A stretch of DNA of 64,000 bases from a virus (IMGVR_UViG_3300045988_034415:82807-146806), one strand, 5' to 3'. Counted from the stretch's first letter, positions 24,610 to 35,793 are shown. Program-made: numbers and translations. The notes: generated by a model from the letters alone, not told the origin.

Positions 24610-25000
24610 ATGACTTTAATTCAAAATGAAGACAACAAATGCCCTACCACTAAACAAGTGAATGACGCACTCAAGTCTATGGGGGGGGGTTCAGACCCTA
24701 GTTTTAACAACAAAAGATTTGATTCATCCAGGTAGAAGTAGTAATCTAGAGATTAACAGTGCTGATAGTGCTGTAATGGAGATTGTGAAGTCTAATATGA
24801 CAGACATGGTCCCATTTCAGTTACTGTATTATGGAGTATCTAATGGTACGCCAACATGTATTAGTGTGGCAATAGTCGGAATTCCAATAGCTAATTTGTT
24901 CACATTATACGTAAATGTAAATCAAAGTGGTTTACAGCACTTTAGCCTTAACAAAGGCTCCAATCAAAAGTGGATTGCTTCTACACTTAGTAATTCTTAA
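24610..25000 (+). CDS. G9-tract-disrupted gene: ATG 24610, frame shifts at G9 (24681-24689) into ORF 24662..25000
   Basis: Own translation: MTLIQNEDNKCPTTKQVNDALKSMGGG then stop at 24733 in register; the G8 or G11 register gives one continuous 129-aa ORF. Confidence 0.45.
24681..24689 (+). repeat. G9 homopolymer in the N-terminal Gly-Gly-Gly codons of gene 24610
   Basis: Read directly: tat ggggggggg ttcag. Confidence 0.95.
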
Positions 25001-25031: not shown

Positions 25032-25235
25032 ATGAGAAATTTTATATTTGACGTCTGGGTTTGGTCTAAAGCCAAACACTCCAGACTACTTAAGCAAATA
25101 AGGGTAAAGGCACTATCGTTTCCTTCAGACATGTTCTGTTTGAACGAAGCTGCTAAAGATGCAGATGTATCACCCTACATGAAATCAGATGAATTTGAAG
25201 TAACAATTGGTAATTTAAGAGAATATCAAGAATAA
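25032..25235 (+). CDS. hypothetical protein (67 aa)
   Basis: ORF track. Confidence 0.4.
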   Translation: MRNFIFDVWVWSKAKHSRLLKQIRVKALSFPSDMFCLNEAAKDADVSPYMKSDEFEVTIGNLREYQE

Positions 25236-25729
25236 TGGAAAGCACTAATGAATTAGTAACAGCAGCTGAAGCCAGAGCAGAAGGCTTGAGCTTAGACGGA
25301 GTTGCGAACAATAGATGCATTACTAAGCAACAGTTCAATGATAACCTACCGTCGGGGGGGGGTATTGCTGACGCTATAGATTTATTAAACGGTTCACTAG
25401 GCGGCAGCACCCTAATATTCTTTAATAACACTACTACAGACACTACAATGGGTATATCAATCATGAATATGTATGGTCAAAGCACATCGGCTACACCAGA
25501 TATTCCTGCTTCATCTATGGTGGTATACCCTATAGCAGGTGCTATAAGAAATATAGCTTTGTTTGGCAATAGTGTGATTGGAAGTAATACTTACGTAGCA
25601 TTCCTATTAAATAATGCAAAGAATATGAATTACTATTCTAATTATGAAACAGATAGACTTACTATAGGAACTAATCAGAATATGCCAGTACAGGGTCTAC
25701 TTGCCGTTATGTGTATAAACAATACATAG
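25235..25729 (+). CDS. hypothetical protein (164 aa) carrying an in-frame G9 tract; ends with TAG
   Basis: ORF track; ...NLPSGGGIADAIDLL over the G9 at 25354-25362. Confidence 0.5.
   Translation: MESTNELVTAAEARAEGLSLDGVANNRCITKQQFNDNLPSGGGIADAIDLLNGSLGGSTLIFFNNTTTDTTMGISIMNMYGQSTSATPDIPASSMVVYPIAGAIRNIALFGNSVIGSNTYVAFLLNNAKNMNYYSNYETDRLTIGTNQNMPVQGLLAVMCINNT
25354..25362 (+). repeat. G9 homopolymer (in frame, Gly-Gly-Gly)
   Basis: Read directly: ccgtcg ggggggggg tattg. Confidence 0.95.
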
Positions 25730-25741
25730 CAAGTATTTAAA

Positions 25742-26284
25742 ATGACAAATAAAATTGCAACAGAACAATATTTAATTAATTTAGCTGGTGGAGGTACAAA
25801 TACTCCAACCAAGTGTGCCACTAGAGATAGAGTAGAGTTCTTCGGACTTGAAACTAACGATAATTACGCTAATAATCAGTTAGTTAAGGAAGAGGATATA
25901 CAGTTGTCAACATTCCAGTATGACTTCAATATACATGTTTCAATAACTAACTCTGGGCTTACGTCTAAATCCTATGACTTTGTAGCAGATGTTTACATAG
26001 ATGGAGTTCCAGATGGGTTTATAACAATTCCTAGGTCTGGAACTCTAGACTATCAAGGGGCAACTTTCTTTGACAGAAACTTCCACTTTAATTTACCAAC
26101 TGATTTAACTAATGTCTCTAAATTATTGTTCACTGGATATTTCAGTACATACAGGGTGACTGTAGATGCAGATAATGTAACAAATAACGCAGTATGCCAA
26201 TCTGGGGTAACTACTGAAATACCAATAAATCAGGCATATATAGGAGGTGACACAGCTAATATTTCTATAAATGTAATTATATAA
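25742..26284 (+). CDS. hypothetical protein (180 aa); in frame with the upstream TAG-terminated ORF
   Basis: ORF track; the 12-nt linker has no stop. Confidence 0.5.
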   Translation: MTNKIATEQYLINLAGGGTNTPTKCATRDRVEFFGLETNDNYANNQLVKEEDIQLSTFQYDFNIHVSITNSGLTSKSYDFVADVYIDGVPDGFITIPRSGTLDYQGATFFDRNFHFNLPTDLTNVSKLLFTGYFSTYRVTVDADNVTNNAVCQSGVTTEIPINQAYIGGDTANISINVII

Positions 26285-26526
26285 TGAAGTTTGTAACATT
26301 CTTAAAGCAAGTATTCACATCCCACTCTGGCATATCATCTAAGAGACTCTGCGGAGTAGTAGGGTGGTTTGTCTGCTTGGGAGTGTTAATATACTGTGCA
26401 ATAAACGTAATTCAAGCCCCATTAATGATAGACACAGTCCTGTTGTGTTGTATGGGATTGCTTGGCATAGATTCAGTAACAGGAATATGGAAGAGATTCA
26501 CCAATAACGATAAATCGAATAAATAA
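26284..26526 (+). CDS. holin-like small membrane protein (80 aa, two TM helices)
   Basis: LCGVVGWFVCLGVLIYCAINVI and LLCCMGLLGIDSVTGIW hydrophobic helices, charged C-terminus; directly upstream of the SLT-domain gene. Confidence 0.35.
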   Translation: MKFVTFLKQVFTSHSGISSKRLCGVVGWFVCLGVLIYCAINVIQAPLMIDTVLLCCMGLLGIDSVTGIWKRFTNNDKSNK

Positions 26527-28778
26527 TGAAAGTAATACCTAAACTACAACAAGGAAACACCATAGAGTCCGATAATACTAAAGTAGTTAGGCCAGAAATT
26601 CATGAACCTATTAAAGCTAAACCTAAACAGTATTCCATTGTAGATTTAGGTGGAGAACCTTCTAATGATACCAGGTCAGCTGCTGAAAGAAATAGAGACT
26701 ATTGGCATCCTATTAAAGGAGCTAAAGCCAGATTCAGGGCTTCTATGTCCAATGAGACTAATCCTCTAGTTGGAATAGAAAGAACTATACTTCCCTCAGC
26801 AGCTGGCGCTGCATTAGTAACAACTCCAGCCGCTGTTGTAGGAGGAGCTTTAGGTAATATGACTGTGGATAAGCTTACCGGGGGCTGGGGTAACTGGTTG
26901 GAAGATAAAACTGGCATTCCGTCCGAAATTGGAATTTATACTAATCCAGGAGCTTGGTATGGTGGTGCTAAAGGATATAAGATTGGAAAGGACAAGTTAA
27001 TAACTAAATCAATTAAAGGTGACGCTGACTTAGCTTGGAATCCTATTAACAAGAATCATTGGATATTTAATAAGGAAGCAAGGACTCCTTCTAATATAGC
27101 AATGGCAACAGCTAACAGAATTACTCCATTTCTATCTAAGGTAGAGAAATTACCATTAAAAGTGGCTGCTTATAAAGCTGCCAAGAGAACTAACGGTAAT
27201 GCATCAGTAAGTTTGCAAGATATAAAAACAATGCCAGCCGACTACACAGGTTCTTCAATACTAGGTGGAGGAAATTTAGAAGGTAGGAATCTATTAGCTA
27301 AATATATATTTGATGAGAATCCAGTAGTTAAAAGAATGTTCTTTAATAAAGCTACTAGTAATATCAAACCTATTAGCCGTAATGAAGCAAGGAGAGGATT
27401 TAGTCATGGGGATAGATATGAGCAGCTTTATCCTGGAGTTCATAACAGAAGATACGAAATGAGTGCAGTAGTACCCTCTGGTAGACCTCTTAAGTTTGAG
27501 AATGTTACAAAGTTTACTGATTATGCTGGAAAGAATCCAATCGGCAAGGTTGTTGGTAAGGAGACTGAACCAGTAATGCGTATGGGAGATAAAGAGTTTA
27601 TGACCTTTAGGCAGCCAGGAACCGATTATATAGGTCCTATTGATGACGTTACTGGACACTTGGTTAAGTTTCAAATGAATAAGGGTAAGCTTAGACAGAC
27701 TTCTCAAGATATGTGGAAATTTAATCCTGCTGACTATGCTAAGAGGTGGAATGATTCTCCTAATACTGCTAACCAAGTTAGGCTTACTAAACAAGCTGCA
27801 TTAATGGATAAAGTAGGTCGTCCGTTTTTTATACTACAGCAATCTAATCCTATATGGATTGAAGGTAAGTCTGTTAGAAATCCAGAATTAGTAACTATGG
27901 CACATGGTGGAAGATTTGATTTTAAGAAGTCCCCTCTGTTAAAGAAACAAGAAGAGATTAACGGTAAAAGGGACATGCGCAAGAAGTTCATCAAATCAAG
28001 TCGCCCAACCTATAAGAAGCGAATCAAGAAAGCTCAACAAGGAATGAAGTTCGTAAGTTATAATCCAGTAAGTAATCCTACAATAGATTACACTGATATT
28101 ACTAATCCTATTAATCCATTTAGTGAGTATAATTATAATACAACTTACGATAAACCAGAGGCTTTAGTAGTACCAGTAAGAGATACTAATGAACCTGATG
28201 TAGTAGCTAATAATCCTACAGCAGAGCCAGTAATTAATAAGCCAGTAGCTAGTAAAGTTACATATACTCCTAAATCATATAAAGGATTAGCTGCATTTAA
28301 TAAGGCTTATGATGAAGTAGAAGCTAGTAATCCAGAAGCTAAGAAGTATAGGCAATTCCTTACTAAAATGGCAGAGCAGGAATCTGGATTTAATAGTGCA
28401 ATTCAGAATAGAGCAGGAGCACCTGCCTATGGCTATTTCCAATTCATGCAGGATGATAAGAAGTATAACAACATTAGACAGTATGCAGGTACGGATATAG
28501 AGACATTTAGAAATAATCCTAAGCTACAAATAGAAGCTGCAATTAGACTTGCCAAATCATTCGAGAAGGGATTCAGTAAAGAGGATTTGGAACTTGCTAA
28601 TAAGAATGGATATTCTACTTGGGGATTATTAGGTGGAGCTTGGTTAGCAGGTAATGGTGGTGTACGTAAGTTCTTAAGAGGACAAGGTAATCCTTCTGAT
28701 AGACATTGGAGTAAAGAAGGTAAAGGTACTGATGTAGCTACTAGGATTAAGGCATTTAATTTTAAGGAAGGTGGTTAG
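26526..28778 (+). CDS. 750-aa protein with C-terminal SLT lytic transglycosylase domain (virion-associated or lysis enzyme)
   Basis: Motif MAEQESGFNSAIQNRAGAPAYGYFQFMQ matches the SLT/GH23 core (ES...N..A....GA.G..Q.MQ); ends in TAG. Confidence 0.55.
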   Translation: MKVIPKLQQGNTIESDNTKVVRPEIHEPIKAKPKQYSIVDLGGEPSNDTRSAAERNRDYWHPIKGAKARFRASMSNETNPLVGIERTILPSAAGAALVTTPAAVVGGALGNMTVDKLTGGWGNWLEDKTGIPSEIGIYTNPGAWYGGAKGYKIGKDKLITKSIKGDADLAWNPINKNHWIFNKEARTPSNIAMATANRITPFLSKVEKLPLKVAAYKAAKRTNGNASVSLQDIKTMPADYTGSSILGGGNLEGRNLLAKYIFDENPVVKRMFFNKATSNIKPISRNEARRGFSHGDRYEQLYPGVHNRRYEMSAVVPSGRPLKFENVTKFTDYAGKNPIGKVVGKETEPVMRMGDKEFMTFRQPGTDYIGPIDDVTGHLVKFQMNKGKLRQTSQDMWKFNPADYAKRWNDSPNTANQVRLTKQAALMDKVGRPFFILQQSNPIWIEGKSVRNPELVTMAHGGRFDFKKSPLLKKQEEINGKRDMRKKFIKSSRPTYKKRIKKAQQGMKFVSYNPVSNPTIDYTDITNPINPFSEYNYNTTYDKPEALVVPVRDTNEPDVVANNPTAEPVINKPVASKVTYTPKSYKGLAAFNKAYDEVEASNPEAKKYRQFLTKMAEQESGFNSAIQNRAGAPAYGYFQFMQDDKKYNNIRQYAGTDIETFRNNPKLQIEAAIRLAKSFEKGFSKEDLELANKNGYSTWGLLGGAWLAGNGGVRKFLRGQGNPSDRHWSKEGKGTDVATRIKAFNFKEGG

Positions 28779-30797: not shown

Positions 30798-31883
30798 ATG
30801 AGTAGAATAGTAACACAAAGTAAATTAAACGAATTAACAGGTAAGAATATAGATTACGGGAAGGGGGGGGGTTATTGTCCTCACTACCAAATCATAGTTA
30901 GTCTCTGGGGTAGCGTAGTTGCGTCTAGTAACTACCAGCCAAATCAATTAGTTAAAGAAGAAGATATAGTTGTAGACAAAGACCTATTCCTTATTAATGC
31001 GGAGACAGGTAGTTTATACTTTGCTGGCGGTGGTACCTATGCTCAAATTCCAGCTATAGACGGCCATGAGGATTTTATGTACATAGCTGGAGGAGGTGAA
31101 GCAATTGGAGCATTGTCTGTGCTTGGAGGATTGTATGTAGTTAATCAGTCTACCAAACAGTGGGAATTAAAATACAAAGATACTGTAAGAGCTTATAGTT
31201 ATGCTCGCTTGGCTAGGTTCTCTACTGGCTGGGTATTTTATAAGGGAGCAGGAGGAGACGGTAAGAACTATGTTATTATAGTGTATGATGACGGTACAGT
31301 AAAGGAGCGTAGTGTTGTAGGCCCAGTCAGCAGCATATCAACTGGGCCTTATGATTACTGCTGTGTTGGGGCATCATATCAGGGAGGAGCTAGAATATAT
31401 ACCTTCTTGGCTACATCTGTACCAGATTCTCTTACTTATTATACTCCTGGAATGTTTACACCAAGTGCAGTAATACAAGGGTTTCATTCTTCGCCAAGAA
31501 GTGTAGTATATAGCACTACTAGTAATTATACATACGTTAGTGCTAATCCAACTGGAACTCAATGGACTGCTGCAACCACTAGACCACAACTAACAGGTTT
31601 GACTAAAGGATTGTATGTAAATGAAGCTAGGACTAATACATTTATGCTTATAGGAAATAATATGAAGAGTGTGTCTACAGATGGGGGTAATAATTGGACT
31701 ACATCTACACTAGGTGAATATACTCTTACTGATTTAATATATGTAGATTCAAATTGGTATGCAATTGGTTCGAATAAAGCTAAAAGACTCCTATTGCAGA
31801 ATACAGCTTCTACATTTGACCAAAGTAATAAAATACTTGACTTGCCTGACTATTCTAGCCAAGTAATTAAAATTAGTACATAA
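30798..31883 (+). CDS. hypothetical protein (~361 aa) with an in-frame G9 tract near the N-terminus; start moved to ATG 30798
   Basis: The track ORF 30708.. overlaps the upstream gene by 77 nt; MSRIVTQSKLNE start at 30798 avoids the overlap; GKGGGYCPHYQ over G9 30863-30871. Confidence 0.5.
   Translation: MSRIVTQSKLNELTGKNIDYGKGGGYCPHYQIIVSLWGSVVASSNYQPNQLVKEEDIVVDKDLFLINAETGSLYFAGGGTYAQIPAIDGHEDFMYIAGGGEAIGALSVLGGLYVVNQSTKQWELKYKDTVRAYSYARLARFSTGWVFYKGAGGDGKNYVIIVYDDGTVKERSVVGPVSSISTGPYDYCCVGASYQGGARIYTFLATSVPDSLTYYTPGMFTPSAVIQGFHSSPRSVVYSTTSNYTYVSANPTGTQWTAATTRPQLTGLTKGLYVNEARTNTFMLIGNNMKSVSTDGGNNWTTSTLGEYTLTDLIYVDSNWYAIGSNKAKRLLLQNTASTFDQSNKILDLPDYSSQVIKIST
30863..30871 (+). repeat. G9 homopolymer (in frame, Gly-Gly-Gly)
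   Basis: Read directly: cggg aa ggggggggg ttattg. Confidence 0.95.
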
Positions 31884-34690: not shown

Positions 34691-34888
34691 TTAGTCTTTA
34701 GTTTTAACATAAAGTTGGCAATGGCAAGTCCCTTCTTCCATTTCCCTAAACTCTTTACACATACATACTGTATCTTCATCTCTTACTAAAGAGCATGGAC
34801 AATACTTCTTACCATACTTCTCTTTATTCCTTTTAAGTCCTGCTAGGACTGTTTCCTTTACTTCTTTATTATCAGTTACTTTAATCAT
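34691..34888 (-). CDS. zinc-ribbon-like small protein (65 aa)
   Basis: CPCS...CMCK...CHCQ cysteine pattern. Confidence 0.45.
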   Translation of the reverse strand: MIKVTDNKEVKETVLAGLKRNKEKYGKKYCPCSLVRDEDTVCMCKEFREMEEGTCHCQLYVKTKD

Positions 34889-35531
34889 TGCGCTGACGCT
34901 GTATACAGTTCTATGTTTAGGTCTATTTCCCCACCAGTAAATCTAAATACTCTACCAGAATTATTCATTTTGACCCACCTTCCAGATGAAGGGAGTGTTA
35001 CTCCTTCTGCCCAATTCTCAGATTGAGAATCTACTGCTAATGTAATTTGAGACACTTGCCTAAGCATCACGTATCCCTCAAAACGTATCCAAACAGGTGT
35101 ATTATATGGGTCTTGGTTAGGAAGTGCTAATTTCTCTAAGTAATATTTAAGAGGATTTGCTAAAGTCTTAGTGTACGTTCGTTCTCCTTGCTCTAATCTT
35201 GGAGTAATTGTAAAGTACATAGTATTGTCAGAATACTCAAACGGCTCTCCATTCACTGAACTCTCATTAACAAATGAGAAACGTACTCTAAATTGCCGTA
35301 TATTATTAATTGGCATATCCTGCCAACCATAATGAAGGATTACATTTGGAGCAGTTATAGCTGCCTCTATACCTTCTAACTCTACTAACTGATTATCAGT
35401 ATAACTAAATCCACTTTTAATCTGACATCCTAATTCAAGTGCTCTAGCTTTAGTACAGCACTTATTATCAATTACCGAGAGAGTCCCCCCCCCATAGTCT
35501 TAGCTTCTAATTCTGTTGCTATTTTACTCAT
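34885..35531 (-). CDS. G9-tract-disrupted gene: N-terminal 19 codons (35475-35531) out of register with ORF 34885..35316
   Basis: Minus-strand ATG at 35531 (ATGAGTAA overlap with the upstream stop) reads MSKIATELEAKTMGGGLSR*; one extra G (G10) fuses it in frame to MPINNIRQFRV... giving ~215 aa. Confidence 0.45.
35485..35493 (-). repeat. G9 homopolymer (C9 on the plus strand) in the N-terminal Gly-Gly-Gly codons
   Basis: Read directly: gagagt ccccccccc atagt. Confidence 0.95.
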
Positions 35532-35793
35532 GGTTCTTGTATCGTTCTGTAATATTAATTAAATCCTTGTTGTCATGCAGTAACTCTAAGAAAGCCTTGT
35601 CTACTGCTATATCAAATGCAGTATTAGTAATGATTGGTTCTTTATGCACTCTCTCAATCTCTTCTCTAATCATTTGTTCAGATAATTGAGTGTATAATCG
35701 TCTGGTATAATCATTATACCAAGGCTCTTTAAATGTTACTATAATTTCTTCTCCTGTCATAAATATATTGTCTTTAGTAATCCAGGTAGGCAA
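35524..35793 (-). CDS. hypothetical protein (89 aa)
   Basis: ORF track. Confidence 0.45.
   Translation of the reverse strand: MPTWITKDNIFMTGEEIIVTFKEPWYNDYTRRLYTQLSEQMIREEIERVHKEPIITNTAFDIAVDKAFLELLHDNKDLINITERYKNHE

What the first reader, a model, noticed from the sequence alone, without database searches (positions are those of the whole stretch)
34885..35531. Minus-strand gene split by a G9 tract (C9 at 35485-35493); G10 would restore a ~215-aa protein
A minus-strand ATG at 35531 overlaps the stop of the upstream gene (ATGAGTAA), the typical coupled-gene arrangement. It encodes MSKIATELEAKTMGGG and then terminates. Adding one G places it in frame with MPINNIRQFRVRF (ORF 34885..35316) with no intervening stop. 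The 215-nt ORF-free gap in an otherwise gap-free operon is explained only by this frameshift.
Basis: seen in the sequence. Interest (0 to 1): 0.6.

Follow-up and report, generated by a model that had tools for sequence, protein, structure and literature searches.

The report
Poly-G on/off switches in gut phage
The "broken" gene is one of four genes in this uncultured crAss-like human-gut phage that each carry a run of nine G's whose length changes constantly between otherwise near-identical genomes, flipping the gene in and out of frame: a known kind of phage on/off switch not previously reported, as far as I could find, for this phage group.

Summary
A minus-strand ATG at 35531 opens MSKIATELEAKTMGGGLSR*, and one extra G in the G9 run (35485-35493) gives a 215-aa protein ending at 34885.

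It is not an isolated lesion. The 37%-GC window has no A/T run of 7 or more (19 expected) but four G9 runs (0.025 expected). Each is G on the coding strand, near the 5' end of a paralogous gene. All four vary in length (G6-G11) among related assemblies with identical flanks. At the target, 25 genomes are in frame and 28 out of frame. Genome pairs differing by at most 5 substitutions per kb differ at the tract in 14 of 17 cases. Out-of-frame alleles keep intact downstream ORFs.

Best explanation: slipped-strand, hypermutable poly-G contingency loci that switch a family of modular proteins, each a conserved ~55-aa N-terminal adaptor plus a variable adhesin-like domain. This is the Fletchervirus (Campylobacter phage) principle in a large crAss-like phage, so a new member of a known kind. 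Protein function and within-population switching are inferred, not shown.

The parts
35485..35493 (-). Tract T4: G9 on the coding (minus) strand, codons 13-16 of the target gene; out of frame at G9, in frame at G10 or G7
   Evidence: Length varies G7-G10 in about 50 related assemblies with identical flanks.
35472..35531 (-). 5' fragment of the target gene as it reads with G9: MSKIATELEAKTMGGGLSR*, with its ATG overlapping the upstream gene's stop (ATGAGTAA)
34885..35484 (-). Rest of the target gene in the G10 frame (TLSVIDNKCCTK...TASAQ*, 199 codons plus stop): remainder of the N-module, then a beta-sandwich domain
   Evidence: Open in 24/26 out-of-frame and 21/23 in-frame alleles. AlphaFold model pLDDT 81.6, beta-sandwich at residues 63-213.
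35352..35531 (-). Region encoding the conserved N-terminal adaptor module (about 55-60 aa; IATE-x-EA...GG(G)...NKCCTK-x-RA...LGC...Y..NQLV)
   Evidence: Nearly invariant across homologues. It heads about 300 protein clusters of 60-1121 aa.
24681..24689 (+). Tract T1: G9, out of frame here (needs G8 or G11)
   Evidence: G7, G9, G10, G11 and G7AG4 occur in relatives. Only 1 of 11 genomes is in frame, yet the downstream ORF is open and conserved in all.
24610..25000 (+). T1 gene (MTLIQNEDNKCPTTKQVNDALKSMGG / VQTLVLTTK...SNS*), split by T1
   Evidence: Its N-terminus resembles that of the T2 gene.
25354..25362 (+). Tract T2: G9, in frame here
   Evidence: G6, G8, G9 and G10 occur in relatives.
25235..25729 (+). 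T2 gene (164 aa), intact in the window
25742..26284 (+). Paralogue without a tract: the same N-module (MTNKIATEQYLINLAGGGTNTPTKCATRD...NNQLVKEEDI), but Gly-Gly-Gly is written GGTGGAGGT. It serves as an internal control.
30863..30871 (+). Tract T3: G9 followed by T, in frame here; most relatives have G9 or G8 one or two nucleotides shorter and are out of frame
30798..31883 (+). T3 gene (361 aa; N-module plus a larger C-terminal domain)

Best explanation
The G9 run is a hypermutable simple-sequence repeat, a contingency locus. During phage DNA replication the homopolymer gains or loses single G's by slipped-strand mispairing. The gene therefore flips reversibly between in frame (G10 or G7: a 215-aa protein) and out of frame (G9 or G8: a 19-aa peptide, with no N-module on any downstream product). 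The window records the OFF state.

The same device sits in at least three other paralogous genes of this phage, plus a fifth in a relative, so a phage population is a mixture of up to 2^4 or more expression combinations. The proteins share a conserved ~55-aa N-terminal module fused to interchangeable binding-type domains. I infer that the module is an adaptor docking them to a common partner, most likely the virion. I also infer that switching diversifies what the particle can bind, as a bet-hedge against the phase-variable surfaces of its probable Bacteroidales hosts.

Shown: the tracts, their non-random presence, their length polymorphism and frame consequences, the intactness of OFF alleles, and the modular family. 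Inferred: the slippage mechanism itself, within-population heterogeneity, virion location and binding function.
For: (1) Four G/C runs of exactly 9 are observed against 0.025 expected, while A/T runs of 7 or more are absent (19 expected) and A/T runs of 5-6 are about 7-fold depleted. In 410 kb of related DNA there is no A/T run of 7 or more, and all but one of the 79 G/C runs of 7 or more belong to these tract families.
(2) The tracts use the rarest Gly codon, and a tract-less paralogue encodes the same GGG tripeptide as GGTGGAGGT.
(3) Length polymorphism with identical flanks: T4 G7-G10, T1 G7-G11, T2 G6-G10, T3 G6-G9.
(4) At T4, 25 genomes are ON and 28 OFF. The protein database mirrors this with intact clusters of 1150 and 1636 members and truncated clusters of 526, 1253 and 1337.
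(5) Genome pairs with under 0.5% flank divergence differ at the tract in 14 of 17 cases. One haplotype occurs as G9A, G8A and G7A with 1-3 flank substitutions between copies.
(6) OFF alleles are not decaying: the downstream ORF is intact in 24/26 OFF and 21/23 ON alleles. The T1 downstream ORF is open and conserved in 11/11 genomes although 10 are OFF.
(7) T4 alleles in which the run has decayed to 7 or fewer G's (G3AG6, G6AG3, ATA-G7-AG, ATA-G6-AAA) are all in frame.
(8) G9 is the most common length at T1, T2 and T4 whatever the ON length is, and is also the most common run at T3. This matches the mutational attractor measured for Campylobacter poly-G: modal length 9, insertion bias at G8/G9, deletion bias at G10/G11 (PMC3401435).
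(9) The tract lies at codons 13-16 in a segment predicted disordered (pLDDT below 50 for residues 1-17), and in-frame Gly-number variants are tolerated.
(10) Modular family: the N-module heads about 300 clusters of 60-1121 aa. Long members carry BspA-type LRR (7.5e-24) and InlB B-repeat (2.3e-13) adhesin domains. One natural chimera joins the target's N-module to the T3 C-domain (P0076).
Against: No reads were available, so within-sample heterogeneity and switching rates are not shown. Some between-assembly variation could come from homopolymer sequencing or assembly error, and many contigs have low coverage (about 3x).

At T3, two alleles with an interrupted tract (G6TGG, G7AG) are out of frame. 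At T1, the interrupted allele G7AG4 is also out of frame. T1 is OFF in 10 of 11 genomes. So consensus OFF states are commoner than simple selection for expression would predict.

Confidence: 0.85

Rival explanations
1. Recoding rather than DNA switching. The G9 allele is productive because ribosomes slip -1 on G_GGG_GGG, or RNA polymerase stutters on the C9 template. Full-length protein would then be made from 'out-of-frame' genotypes, and DNA length variation would be nearly neutral.
For: G GGG GGG is formally a slippery heptamer in the zero frame, and a -1 shift gives exactly the G10 protein (inference). Consensus OFF states are very common and G9 is the most common length whatever the frame. 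This would be easier to tolerate if expression did not depend strictly on DNA length. Homopolymers of 9 or more are known transcriptional slippage sites for A/T runs (general knowledge).
Against: There is no stimulatory RNA structure downstream of any tract (z-scores -0.15, +0.30, -0.95, -0.87). The shift needed differs by tract and allele: -1 for T4-G9 and T3-G9, +1 for T1-G9 and T4-G8, none for T2-G9. Programmed sites are normally fixed in sequence, whereas these vary from G6 to G11. Decayed T4 tracts are all in frame, which shows that the DNA frame matters.
Confidence: 0.08
2. Sequencing or assembly artefact. The true tract in this genome is G10 and the window under-counts the homopolymer, so the apparent variation among assemblies is noise.
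For: Homopolymers are the classic site of indel error. Many related contigs have k-mer coverage of about 3 (contig names). All four tracts in the window read exactly 9.
Against: An independent assembly of a 98-99.9% identical phage from another study (MT835470.1, Mexico) also reads G9 at T1 and T2. The variation spans G6-G11, not just +/-1. Higher-coverage contigs also differ: cov 23.6 reads G9A and cov 17.6 reads G8. Error cannot explain why the tracts exist at all in a genome purged of homopolymers, nor the use of the rarest codon. The artefact reading bears only on the exact state of this one copy, not on the nature of the locus.
Confidence: 0.05
3. Pseudogene, or a naturally short gene. 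Either the gene is dead and decaying, or the real gene is the 143-aa MPINN ORF behind an untranslated leader.
For: the ORF listing finds only the 143-aa ORF, and gene callers elsewhere often- or 166-aa products.
Against: The 'leader' encodes a module conserved at nearly 100% while the C-domain diverges to 40%, and the module is found on about 300 other protein clusters. OFF alleles carry no secondary stops. Half of all genomes have the intact 215-aa gene.
Confidence: 0.02

Closest known systems
Hypermutable poly-G tracts in receptor-binding protein genes of Fletchervirus (Campylobacter phages); Sorensen et al. 2021, Cell Rep 35:109214. The paper is not held in the library; its content is taken from citing papers.
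   Same: Intragenic poly-G runs of 7-11 in several genes of one phage. Length variation switches the genes on and off, producing phenotypically mixed phage populations. Several but not all members of a gene set carry a tract.
   Different: The phage group is unrelated (a large crAss-like podovirus-type gut phage rather than a Campylobacter myovirus), and the proteins share no detectable homology. The probable Bacteroidales hosts are known for invertible-promoter rather than poly-G phase variation (general knowledge). Here the tract sits in a shared N-terminal adaptor module of a paralogous family. The receptor-binding role is inferred, not demonstrated.
Poly-G/C contingency loci of Campylobacter jejuni (Bayliss et al. 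2012, PMC3401435)
   Same: Modal tract length of 9, a range of about G7-G11, single-unit changes, tracts near the 5' end of ORFs, and tract length set by mutational bias rather than by the frame.
   Different: Those loci are bacterial chromosomal genes replicated by a host lacking mismatch repair. Here the loci are in a phage genome, and the polymerase or repair background is unknown.
Phage contingency loci in T2/T4 (Gomez, Barrick and Waters 2025 preprint, 10.1101/2025.10.21.683753)
   Same: Homopolymer repeats in phage ORFs give reversible frameshifts and bet-hedging.
   Different: The T-even repeats are short (6 or more, mostly A/T), numerous and spread over all gene classes, and are under-represented in tail fibres. 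Here homopolymers are purged genome-wide, apart from a few long G9 tracts confined to one protein family.
Diversity-generating retroelements and other adaptive devices described for large (zeta) crAss-like phages (PMC12386605)
   Same: The same ecological logic, targeted diversification of putative host-interaction proteins in large crAss-like gut phages, and shared genome traits (about 25 tRNAs, a TAG suppressor tRNA).
   Different: The mechanism is entirely different: frame switching at a homopolymer rather than retro-mutagenesis of a variable repeat. That paper does not mention homopolymers, frameshifts or slippage.

Membership tests
SSR-mediated contingency locus (phase-variable gene) | Homopolymeric or simple repeat of mutable length (about 7 or more) inside the ORF or promoter | tested here: met
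   G9 at codons 13-16 of the target, and three more G9 tracts in paralogues
SSR-mediated contingency locus (phase-variable gene) | Repeat present more often than composition or coding need explains | tested here: met
   4 observed against 0.025 expected. GGG is the rarest Gly codon at 7.8%, other GGG tripeptides use mixed codons, and the genome is otherwise depleted of homopolymers.
SSR-mediated contingency locus (phase-variable gene) | Repeat-number polymorphism among close relatives that toggles the reading frame | tested here: met
   G6-G11 across the four tracts. T4 is ON in 25 and OFF in 28 genomes, and 14 of 17 near-identical pairs differ.
SSR-mediated contingency locus (phase-variable gene) | OFF alleles remain otherwise intact (reversibility, no decay) | tested here: met
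   24/26 OFF alleles have a full downstream ORF. The T1 ORF is open in 11/11 genomes with 10 OFF. Caveat: two interrupted T3 alleles and one interrupted T1 allele are OFF.
SSR-mediated contingency locus (phase-variable gene) | High measured switching rate, or heterogeneity within one population | not testable with these tools
   No read-level data and no culture
Fletchervirus-type phase-variable receptor-binding proteins | The switched protein is a receptor-binding or virion-surface protein | tested here: inconclusive
Fletchervirus-type phase-variable receptor-binding proteins | Sequence homology to Fletchervirus RBPs, or presence in catalogued phages | tested here: not met
   tblastn of the intact protein against 50,697 phage records gave no match, and there was no PHROG.
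Programmed -1 ribosomal frameshift site | Conserved slippery heptamer plus a downstream stimulatory RNA structure, with a fixed sequence | tested here: not met
   The heptamer is formally present, but there is no downstream structure (z from -0.95 to +0.30). The tract length is not conserved, and the shift direction required differs between tracts.
Crassvirales (crAss-like phages), large-genome groups | Terminase and portal related to crAss-like phages; large genome; many tRNAs; suppressor tRNA | tested here: inconclusive
   The terminase is 28-31% identical over about 80% of its length to crAss-like terminases, and 99.9% identical to the unclassified MT835470.1. There is a portal PHROG hit. 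Related contigs are 155-190 kb. The window has 25 tRNAs including anticodon CTA. The hallmark virion RNA polymerase and the major capsid protein were not examined.

The most novel reading that the evidence does not exclude
A widespread, uncultured lineage of large crAss-like human-gut phages runs a combinatorial phase-variable repertoire. At least four or five paralogous adhesin-like proteins share one N-terminal virion adaptor, and each is gated by its own poly-G switch (16-32 or more particle types per population). This would be a phage-side counterpart to capsule phase variation in Bacteroidales. It would operate in a genome that has otherwise purged homopolymers, implying a slippage-prone replication system that is tolerated and exploited only at these loci.
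Probability: 0.4. Interest if true: 0.75.

Novelty: new member of a known kind. Interest (0 to 1): 0.6.

Why it matters
Phase variation by phages themselves has been demonstrated essentially only for Campylobacter Fletchervirus. A 2025 gut-phage review still calls that "an exceptional case". The recent survey of adaptive devices in large crAss-like phages lists DGRs, recoding and polymerase swaps, but not homopolymer switches.

If the tracts here work as inferred, a member of the dominant human-gut phage order uses the same trick on a family of modular, adhesin-like proteins. This would help explain long-term coexistence with phase-variable Bacteroidales hosts.

The hypothesis is directly testable from existing data, because thousands of public metagenomes already contain both ON and OFF forms. 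There is also a practical point: gene callers systematically truncate or split these genes, and such "frameshifted" ORFs in metagenomic phage genomes should not be discarded as errors or pseudogenes.

Tried and rejected
- Megablast of the locus against 50,697 phage records found nothing. The only related record, MT835470.1, ends before the target, so it could be checked only for T1 and T2.
- PHROGs, Pfam and PDB sequence searches of the target and its paralogues gave nothing usable.
- A programmed frameshift stimulator was looked for and not found.
- Rescue of the G9 frame by TAG recoding was considered because the phage encodes a CTA-anticodon tRNA. It was rejected because the stop after the tract is TAA.
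- I briefly considered that the alternative frame after T3, whose stops are all TAG, might be read through. I rejected this because the conserved NQLVKEEDI motif fixes the frame.
- A crude synonymous/non-synonymous count was confounded by in-frame indels and is not used.
- The Sorensen 2021 paper could not be read. Its claims are cited only through papers that quote it.
- I did not classify the phage to family, and I did not use the second structure-prediction job.

Full report
**1. The observation**

On the minus strand an ATG at 35531 sits in ATGAGTAA, overlapping the stop of the upstream 89-aa ORF (35524..35793). It opens MSKIATELEAKTMGGGLSR*, with the stop TAA at 35474-35472. Codons 13-16 are written as a run of nine G's (35493-35485; C9 on the + strand). 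Inserting one G yields a 215-aa ORF that runs without a stop to 34885 and contains the 143-aa MPINN ORF that the ORF listing reports. G7 would restore the frame equally well.

**2. It is not a single lesion**

- The 64-kb window is 37% G+C.
- It has no A or T run of 7 or more, where a first-order Markov model expects 19.
- A/T runs of 5 and 6 are about seven-fold depleted (22 against 154, and 6 against 46).
- It has no G or C run of 6-8.
- It has four G/C runs of exactly nine, at 24681, 25354, 30863 and 35485, where 0.025 are expected.
- All four are G on the coding strand and lie near the 5' end of an ORF.
- GGG is the rarest glycine codon here (7.8%). Every other Gly-Gly-Gly tripeptide in the window is written with mixed codons. 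This includes a paralogue at 25742..26284 that has the same N-terminal motif but GGTGGAGGT. The runs are thus maintained at the DNA level.

Frame state in the window:

| Tract | Position | State at G9 | In-frame length |
|---|---|---|---|
| T1 | 24681 | out of frame | G8 or G11 |
| T2 | 25354 | in frame | G9 |
| T3 | 30863 | in frame (G9 followed by T) | as in window |
| T4 (target) | 35485 | out of frame | G10 or G7 |

**3.

The repaired protein finds 80 relatives.

- Contiguous 215-aa forms are abundant: P0001 (96% identical, cluster of 1150 members) and P0002 (1636 members).
- Truncated calls of 166-167 aa (526 and 1253 members) and 143 aa (1337 members) are similarly abundant.
- The first ~55 residues are almost invariant, even where the C-terminal domain has diverged to 40-50% identity.
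- The residues encoded by the tract vary: MGGG, MGG, MGR, IGGK, IGGGG, IGGGR.
- In intact alleles the gene overlaps its upstream neighbour by 8 nt and its downstream neighbour, a FeThRed_B-like 65-aa protein, by 4 nt.

So homologues are not naturally short, and the stretch upstream of MPINN is coding.

**4. DNA-level variation**

I scanned IMG/VR and public metagenome contigs with a pattern that brackets the tract. This gave 50 loci with identical flanks.

- In-frame alleles: G10 (12), G9 followed by A (7), ATA-G9, G3AG6, G6AG3 and ATA-G7-AG.
- Out-of-frame alleles: G9 (about 17 after removing duplicate contigs), G8 (7), ATA-G7 (2), G8A and G7A.
- With a few further loci, the census is 25 in frame and 28 out of frame.

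The other three tracts vary as well:

| Tract | Lengths seen |
|---|---|
| T1 | G7, G9, G10, G11, G7AG4 |
| T2 | G6, G8, G9, G10 |
| T3 | G6-G9, with interrupted forms |

Across 410 kb of related DNA there is no A/T run of 7 or more. All but one of the 79 G/C runs of 7 or more belong to these four tract families. The exception is a fifth G9 in yet another paralogue in L050.

**5. Hypermutation relative to background**

- For 45 loci with at least 500 nt on each side, pairs whose flanks differ by under 0.5% and have essentially no other indel differ at the tract in 14 of 17 cases. That is as often as distant pairs do.
- One haplotype, marked by an A after the run, occurs as G9A, G8A and G7A with 1-3 flank substitutions between copies.
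- Out-of-frame alleles are not decaying. The 199-codon downstream frame is intact in 24 of 26 OFF alleles and 21 of 23 ON alleles.
- At T1, ten of eleven genomes are out of frame, yet the ~110-codon downstream ORF is open and conserved at the protein level in all of them, including a divergent one.
- At T4, every allele whose run has decayed to 7 or fewer G's is in frame: G3AG6, G6AG3, ATA-G7-AG and ATA-G6-AAA.
- G9 is the most common length at T1, T2 and T4 whatever the in-frame length is, and is also the most common run at T3. This matches the mutational attractor measured for Campylobacter poly-G tracts: modal length nine, insertion bias at G8/G9, deletion bias at G10/G11, and rates of 1e-4 to 4e-3 per division (PMC3401435).
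- An independent assembly of a 98-99.9% identical phage (MT835470.1) also reads G9 at T1 and T2.

**6. What speaks against this reading, or remains open**

- There are no reads, so heterogeneity within one population is inferred. Some between-assembly differences may be homopolymer error, since several contigs have about 3x coverage.
- At T3, two interrupted alleles (G6TGG, G7AG) are out of frame, and only 2 of 9 DNA loci are in frame. At T1 the interrupted allele G7AG4 is also out of frame. At database scale, however, intact T3 proteins are abundant (clusters of 1289, 2164 and 546 members) and show in-frame tract polymorphism.
- The high frequency of consensus OFF states leaves room for recoding, that is ribosomal or transcriptional slippage. 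But no tract has a downstream stimulatory structure (z from -0.95 to +0.30). The shift needed differs by tract and allele. Programmed sites are not normally polymorphic in length.

**7. What the proteins are**

- There is no Pfam, PHROGs or PDB sequence match.
- An AlphaFold model of the intact form (P0001 with 18 homologues; pLDDT 81.6) has three parts. Residues 1-17, which contain the tract-encoded glycines, are disordered. Residues 18-60 form a small alpha/beta N-module. Residues 63-213 form a confident beta-sandwich.
- An exhaustive profile search of 1.84 billion representatives finds 305 clusters. Most match only profile positions 1 to about 65, at the N-terminus of proteins 60-1121 aa long. 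The consensus is M-x-K-IATE-x-EA-x-x-IGG...NKCCTK-x-RA-x-x-LGC...Y-x-x-NQLV.
- Long members carry BspA-type leucine-rich repeats (7.5e-24) or InlB B-repeat domains (2.3e-13).
- One natural chimera joins the target's N-module to the T3 C-domain (P0076).

This architecture, an invariant N-terminal adaptor on swappable binding domains, is what tail fibres, receptor-binding proteins and virion decoration proteins look like. I therefore infer a virion-displayed binding function, which is not shown.

The tract itself is lineage-specific:
- Diverged target lineages with different C-domains keep it (G10 in L058; G7 plus another C9 in L059).
- N-module genes in other viral contigs lack it. So do those on contigs binned with Bacteroides, Prevotella, Phocaeicola and Caccoplasma MAGs, which encode the Gly-Gly with mixed codons.

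**8. The phage**

- The terminase is 99.9% identical to MT835470.1, an unannotated 'Bacteriophage sp.' from human faeces. It is 28-31% identical to crAss-like terminases.
- There is a P22-type portal and several tail-fibre genes.
- Related contigs are 155-190 kb.
- The window holds 25 tRNA genes, including a TAG suppressor.

This fits the large-genome crAss-like groups, with a probable Bacteroidales host. I did not test the family-defining genes.

**9. Comparison with what is known**

- Phage-encoded poly-G phase variation is established for Fletchervirus phages of Campylobacter: 7-11 G in receptor-binding protein genes (Sorensen et al. 2021, as quoted).
- Homopolymer contingency loci have recently been described in T2/T4.
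- I found no report for crAss-like phages. A 2025 paper on adaptive mechanisms of zeta crAss-like phages does not mention homopolymers or frameshifts.

The finding is therefore a new member of a known kind. Two features are distinctive. The tracts sit in a shared adaptor module of a paralogous family. And the rest of the genome is conspicuously purged of homopolymers.

**10. Verdict**

The gene is not broken: it is in the OFF state of a reversible poly-G switch, one of at least four in this phage.

- Confidence in the switch mechanism: about 0.85.
- Confidence in the virion-adhesin function: about 0.5.
- Interest: 0.6.

Noticed in passing
window 1-64000 (and 410 kb of related loci L001-L053): Strong genome-wide depletion of A/T homopolymers in a 63% A+T genome. 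Runs of 7 or more: 0 observed against 19 expected. Runs of 6: 6 against 46. Runs of 5: 22 against 154 (first-order Markov). No A/T run of 7 or more in 410 kb of relatives. This suggests selection against slippage-prone sequence everywhere except the G9 tracts, perhaps because the replication system is slippage-prone.
   Followed up: partly
window 43447-63862 (+), suppressor at 50877-50949: An array of about 25 tRNA genes, including one with anticodon CTA (reads TAG; ARAGORN labels it Pyl). TAG ends only 7 of 67 ORFs of at least 100 aa in a six-frame ATG-to-stop scan (TAA 47, TGA 13). Possible amber suppression or recoding, as described for large crAss-like phages. It does not affect the target, whose stop is TAA.
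   Followed up: partly
P0076; corresponds to window 35531-35360 fused to 31080-31883: A natural chimeric protein joins the target's N-module (MSKIATELEAKTMGGG...EGIEAAIT) to the C-terminal domain of the T3 paralogue. This indicates recombinational shuffling of C-domains between the poly-G genes.
   Followed up: no
L050 (minus strand, about position 2852 of the reverse complement): A fifth G9 tract in a related phage, at codon 9 of another paralogue (MTNSISTL-GGG; the next frame continues IALQAANNRLATVNDAV...NKCITVDEMN). It is out of frame in that contig. A further C9 lies in L059 at 5465.
   Followed up: partly
window 34691-34888 (-): The 65-aa ORF immediately downstream of the target, overlapping it by 4 nt, matches the ferredoxin-thioredoxin reductase catalytic beta chain (PF02943, E = 1.5e-13; CPC...CHC motifs). 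This is an unusual phage gene, conserved next to the target in all relatives examined.
   Followed up: no
window 26284-28778 (+): Between the T1/T2 cluster and T3 lie an 80-aa hydrophobic (holin-like) ORF and a 750-aa protein with a C-terminal SLT lytic transglycosylase domain (PF01464, E = 2.7e-6). In relatives, the corresponding large protein is 1247-1260 aa with a glucosaminidase or SLT domain.
   Followed up: no
window 55983-57944 (+): A 653-aa protein with an SPFH/Band-7 domain (PF01145, E = 1e-24) is embedded in the tRNA region. SPFH proteins are uncommon in phages.
   Followed up: no
window 24679-24689 and 35495-35485: T1 and T4 share the same immediate context, CTATG followed by the G run, so the first G of the tract is the G of an in-frame ATG codon. 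In some alleles this is ATA instead (M to I). The significance is unknown.
   Followed up: no
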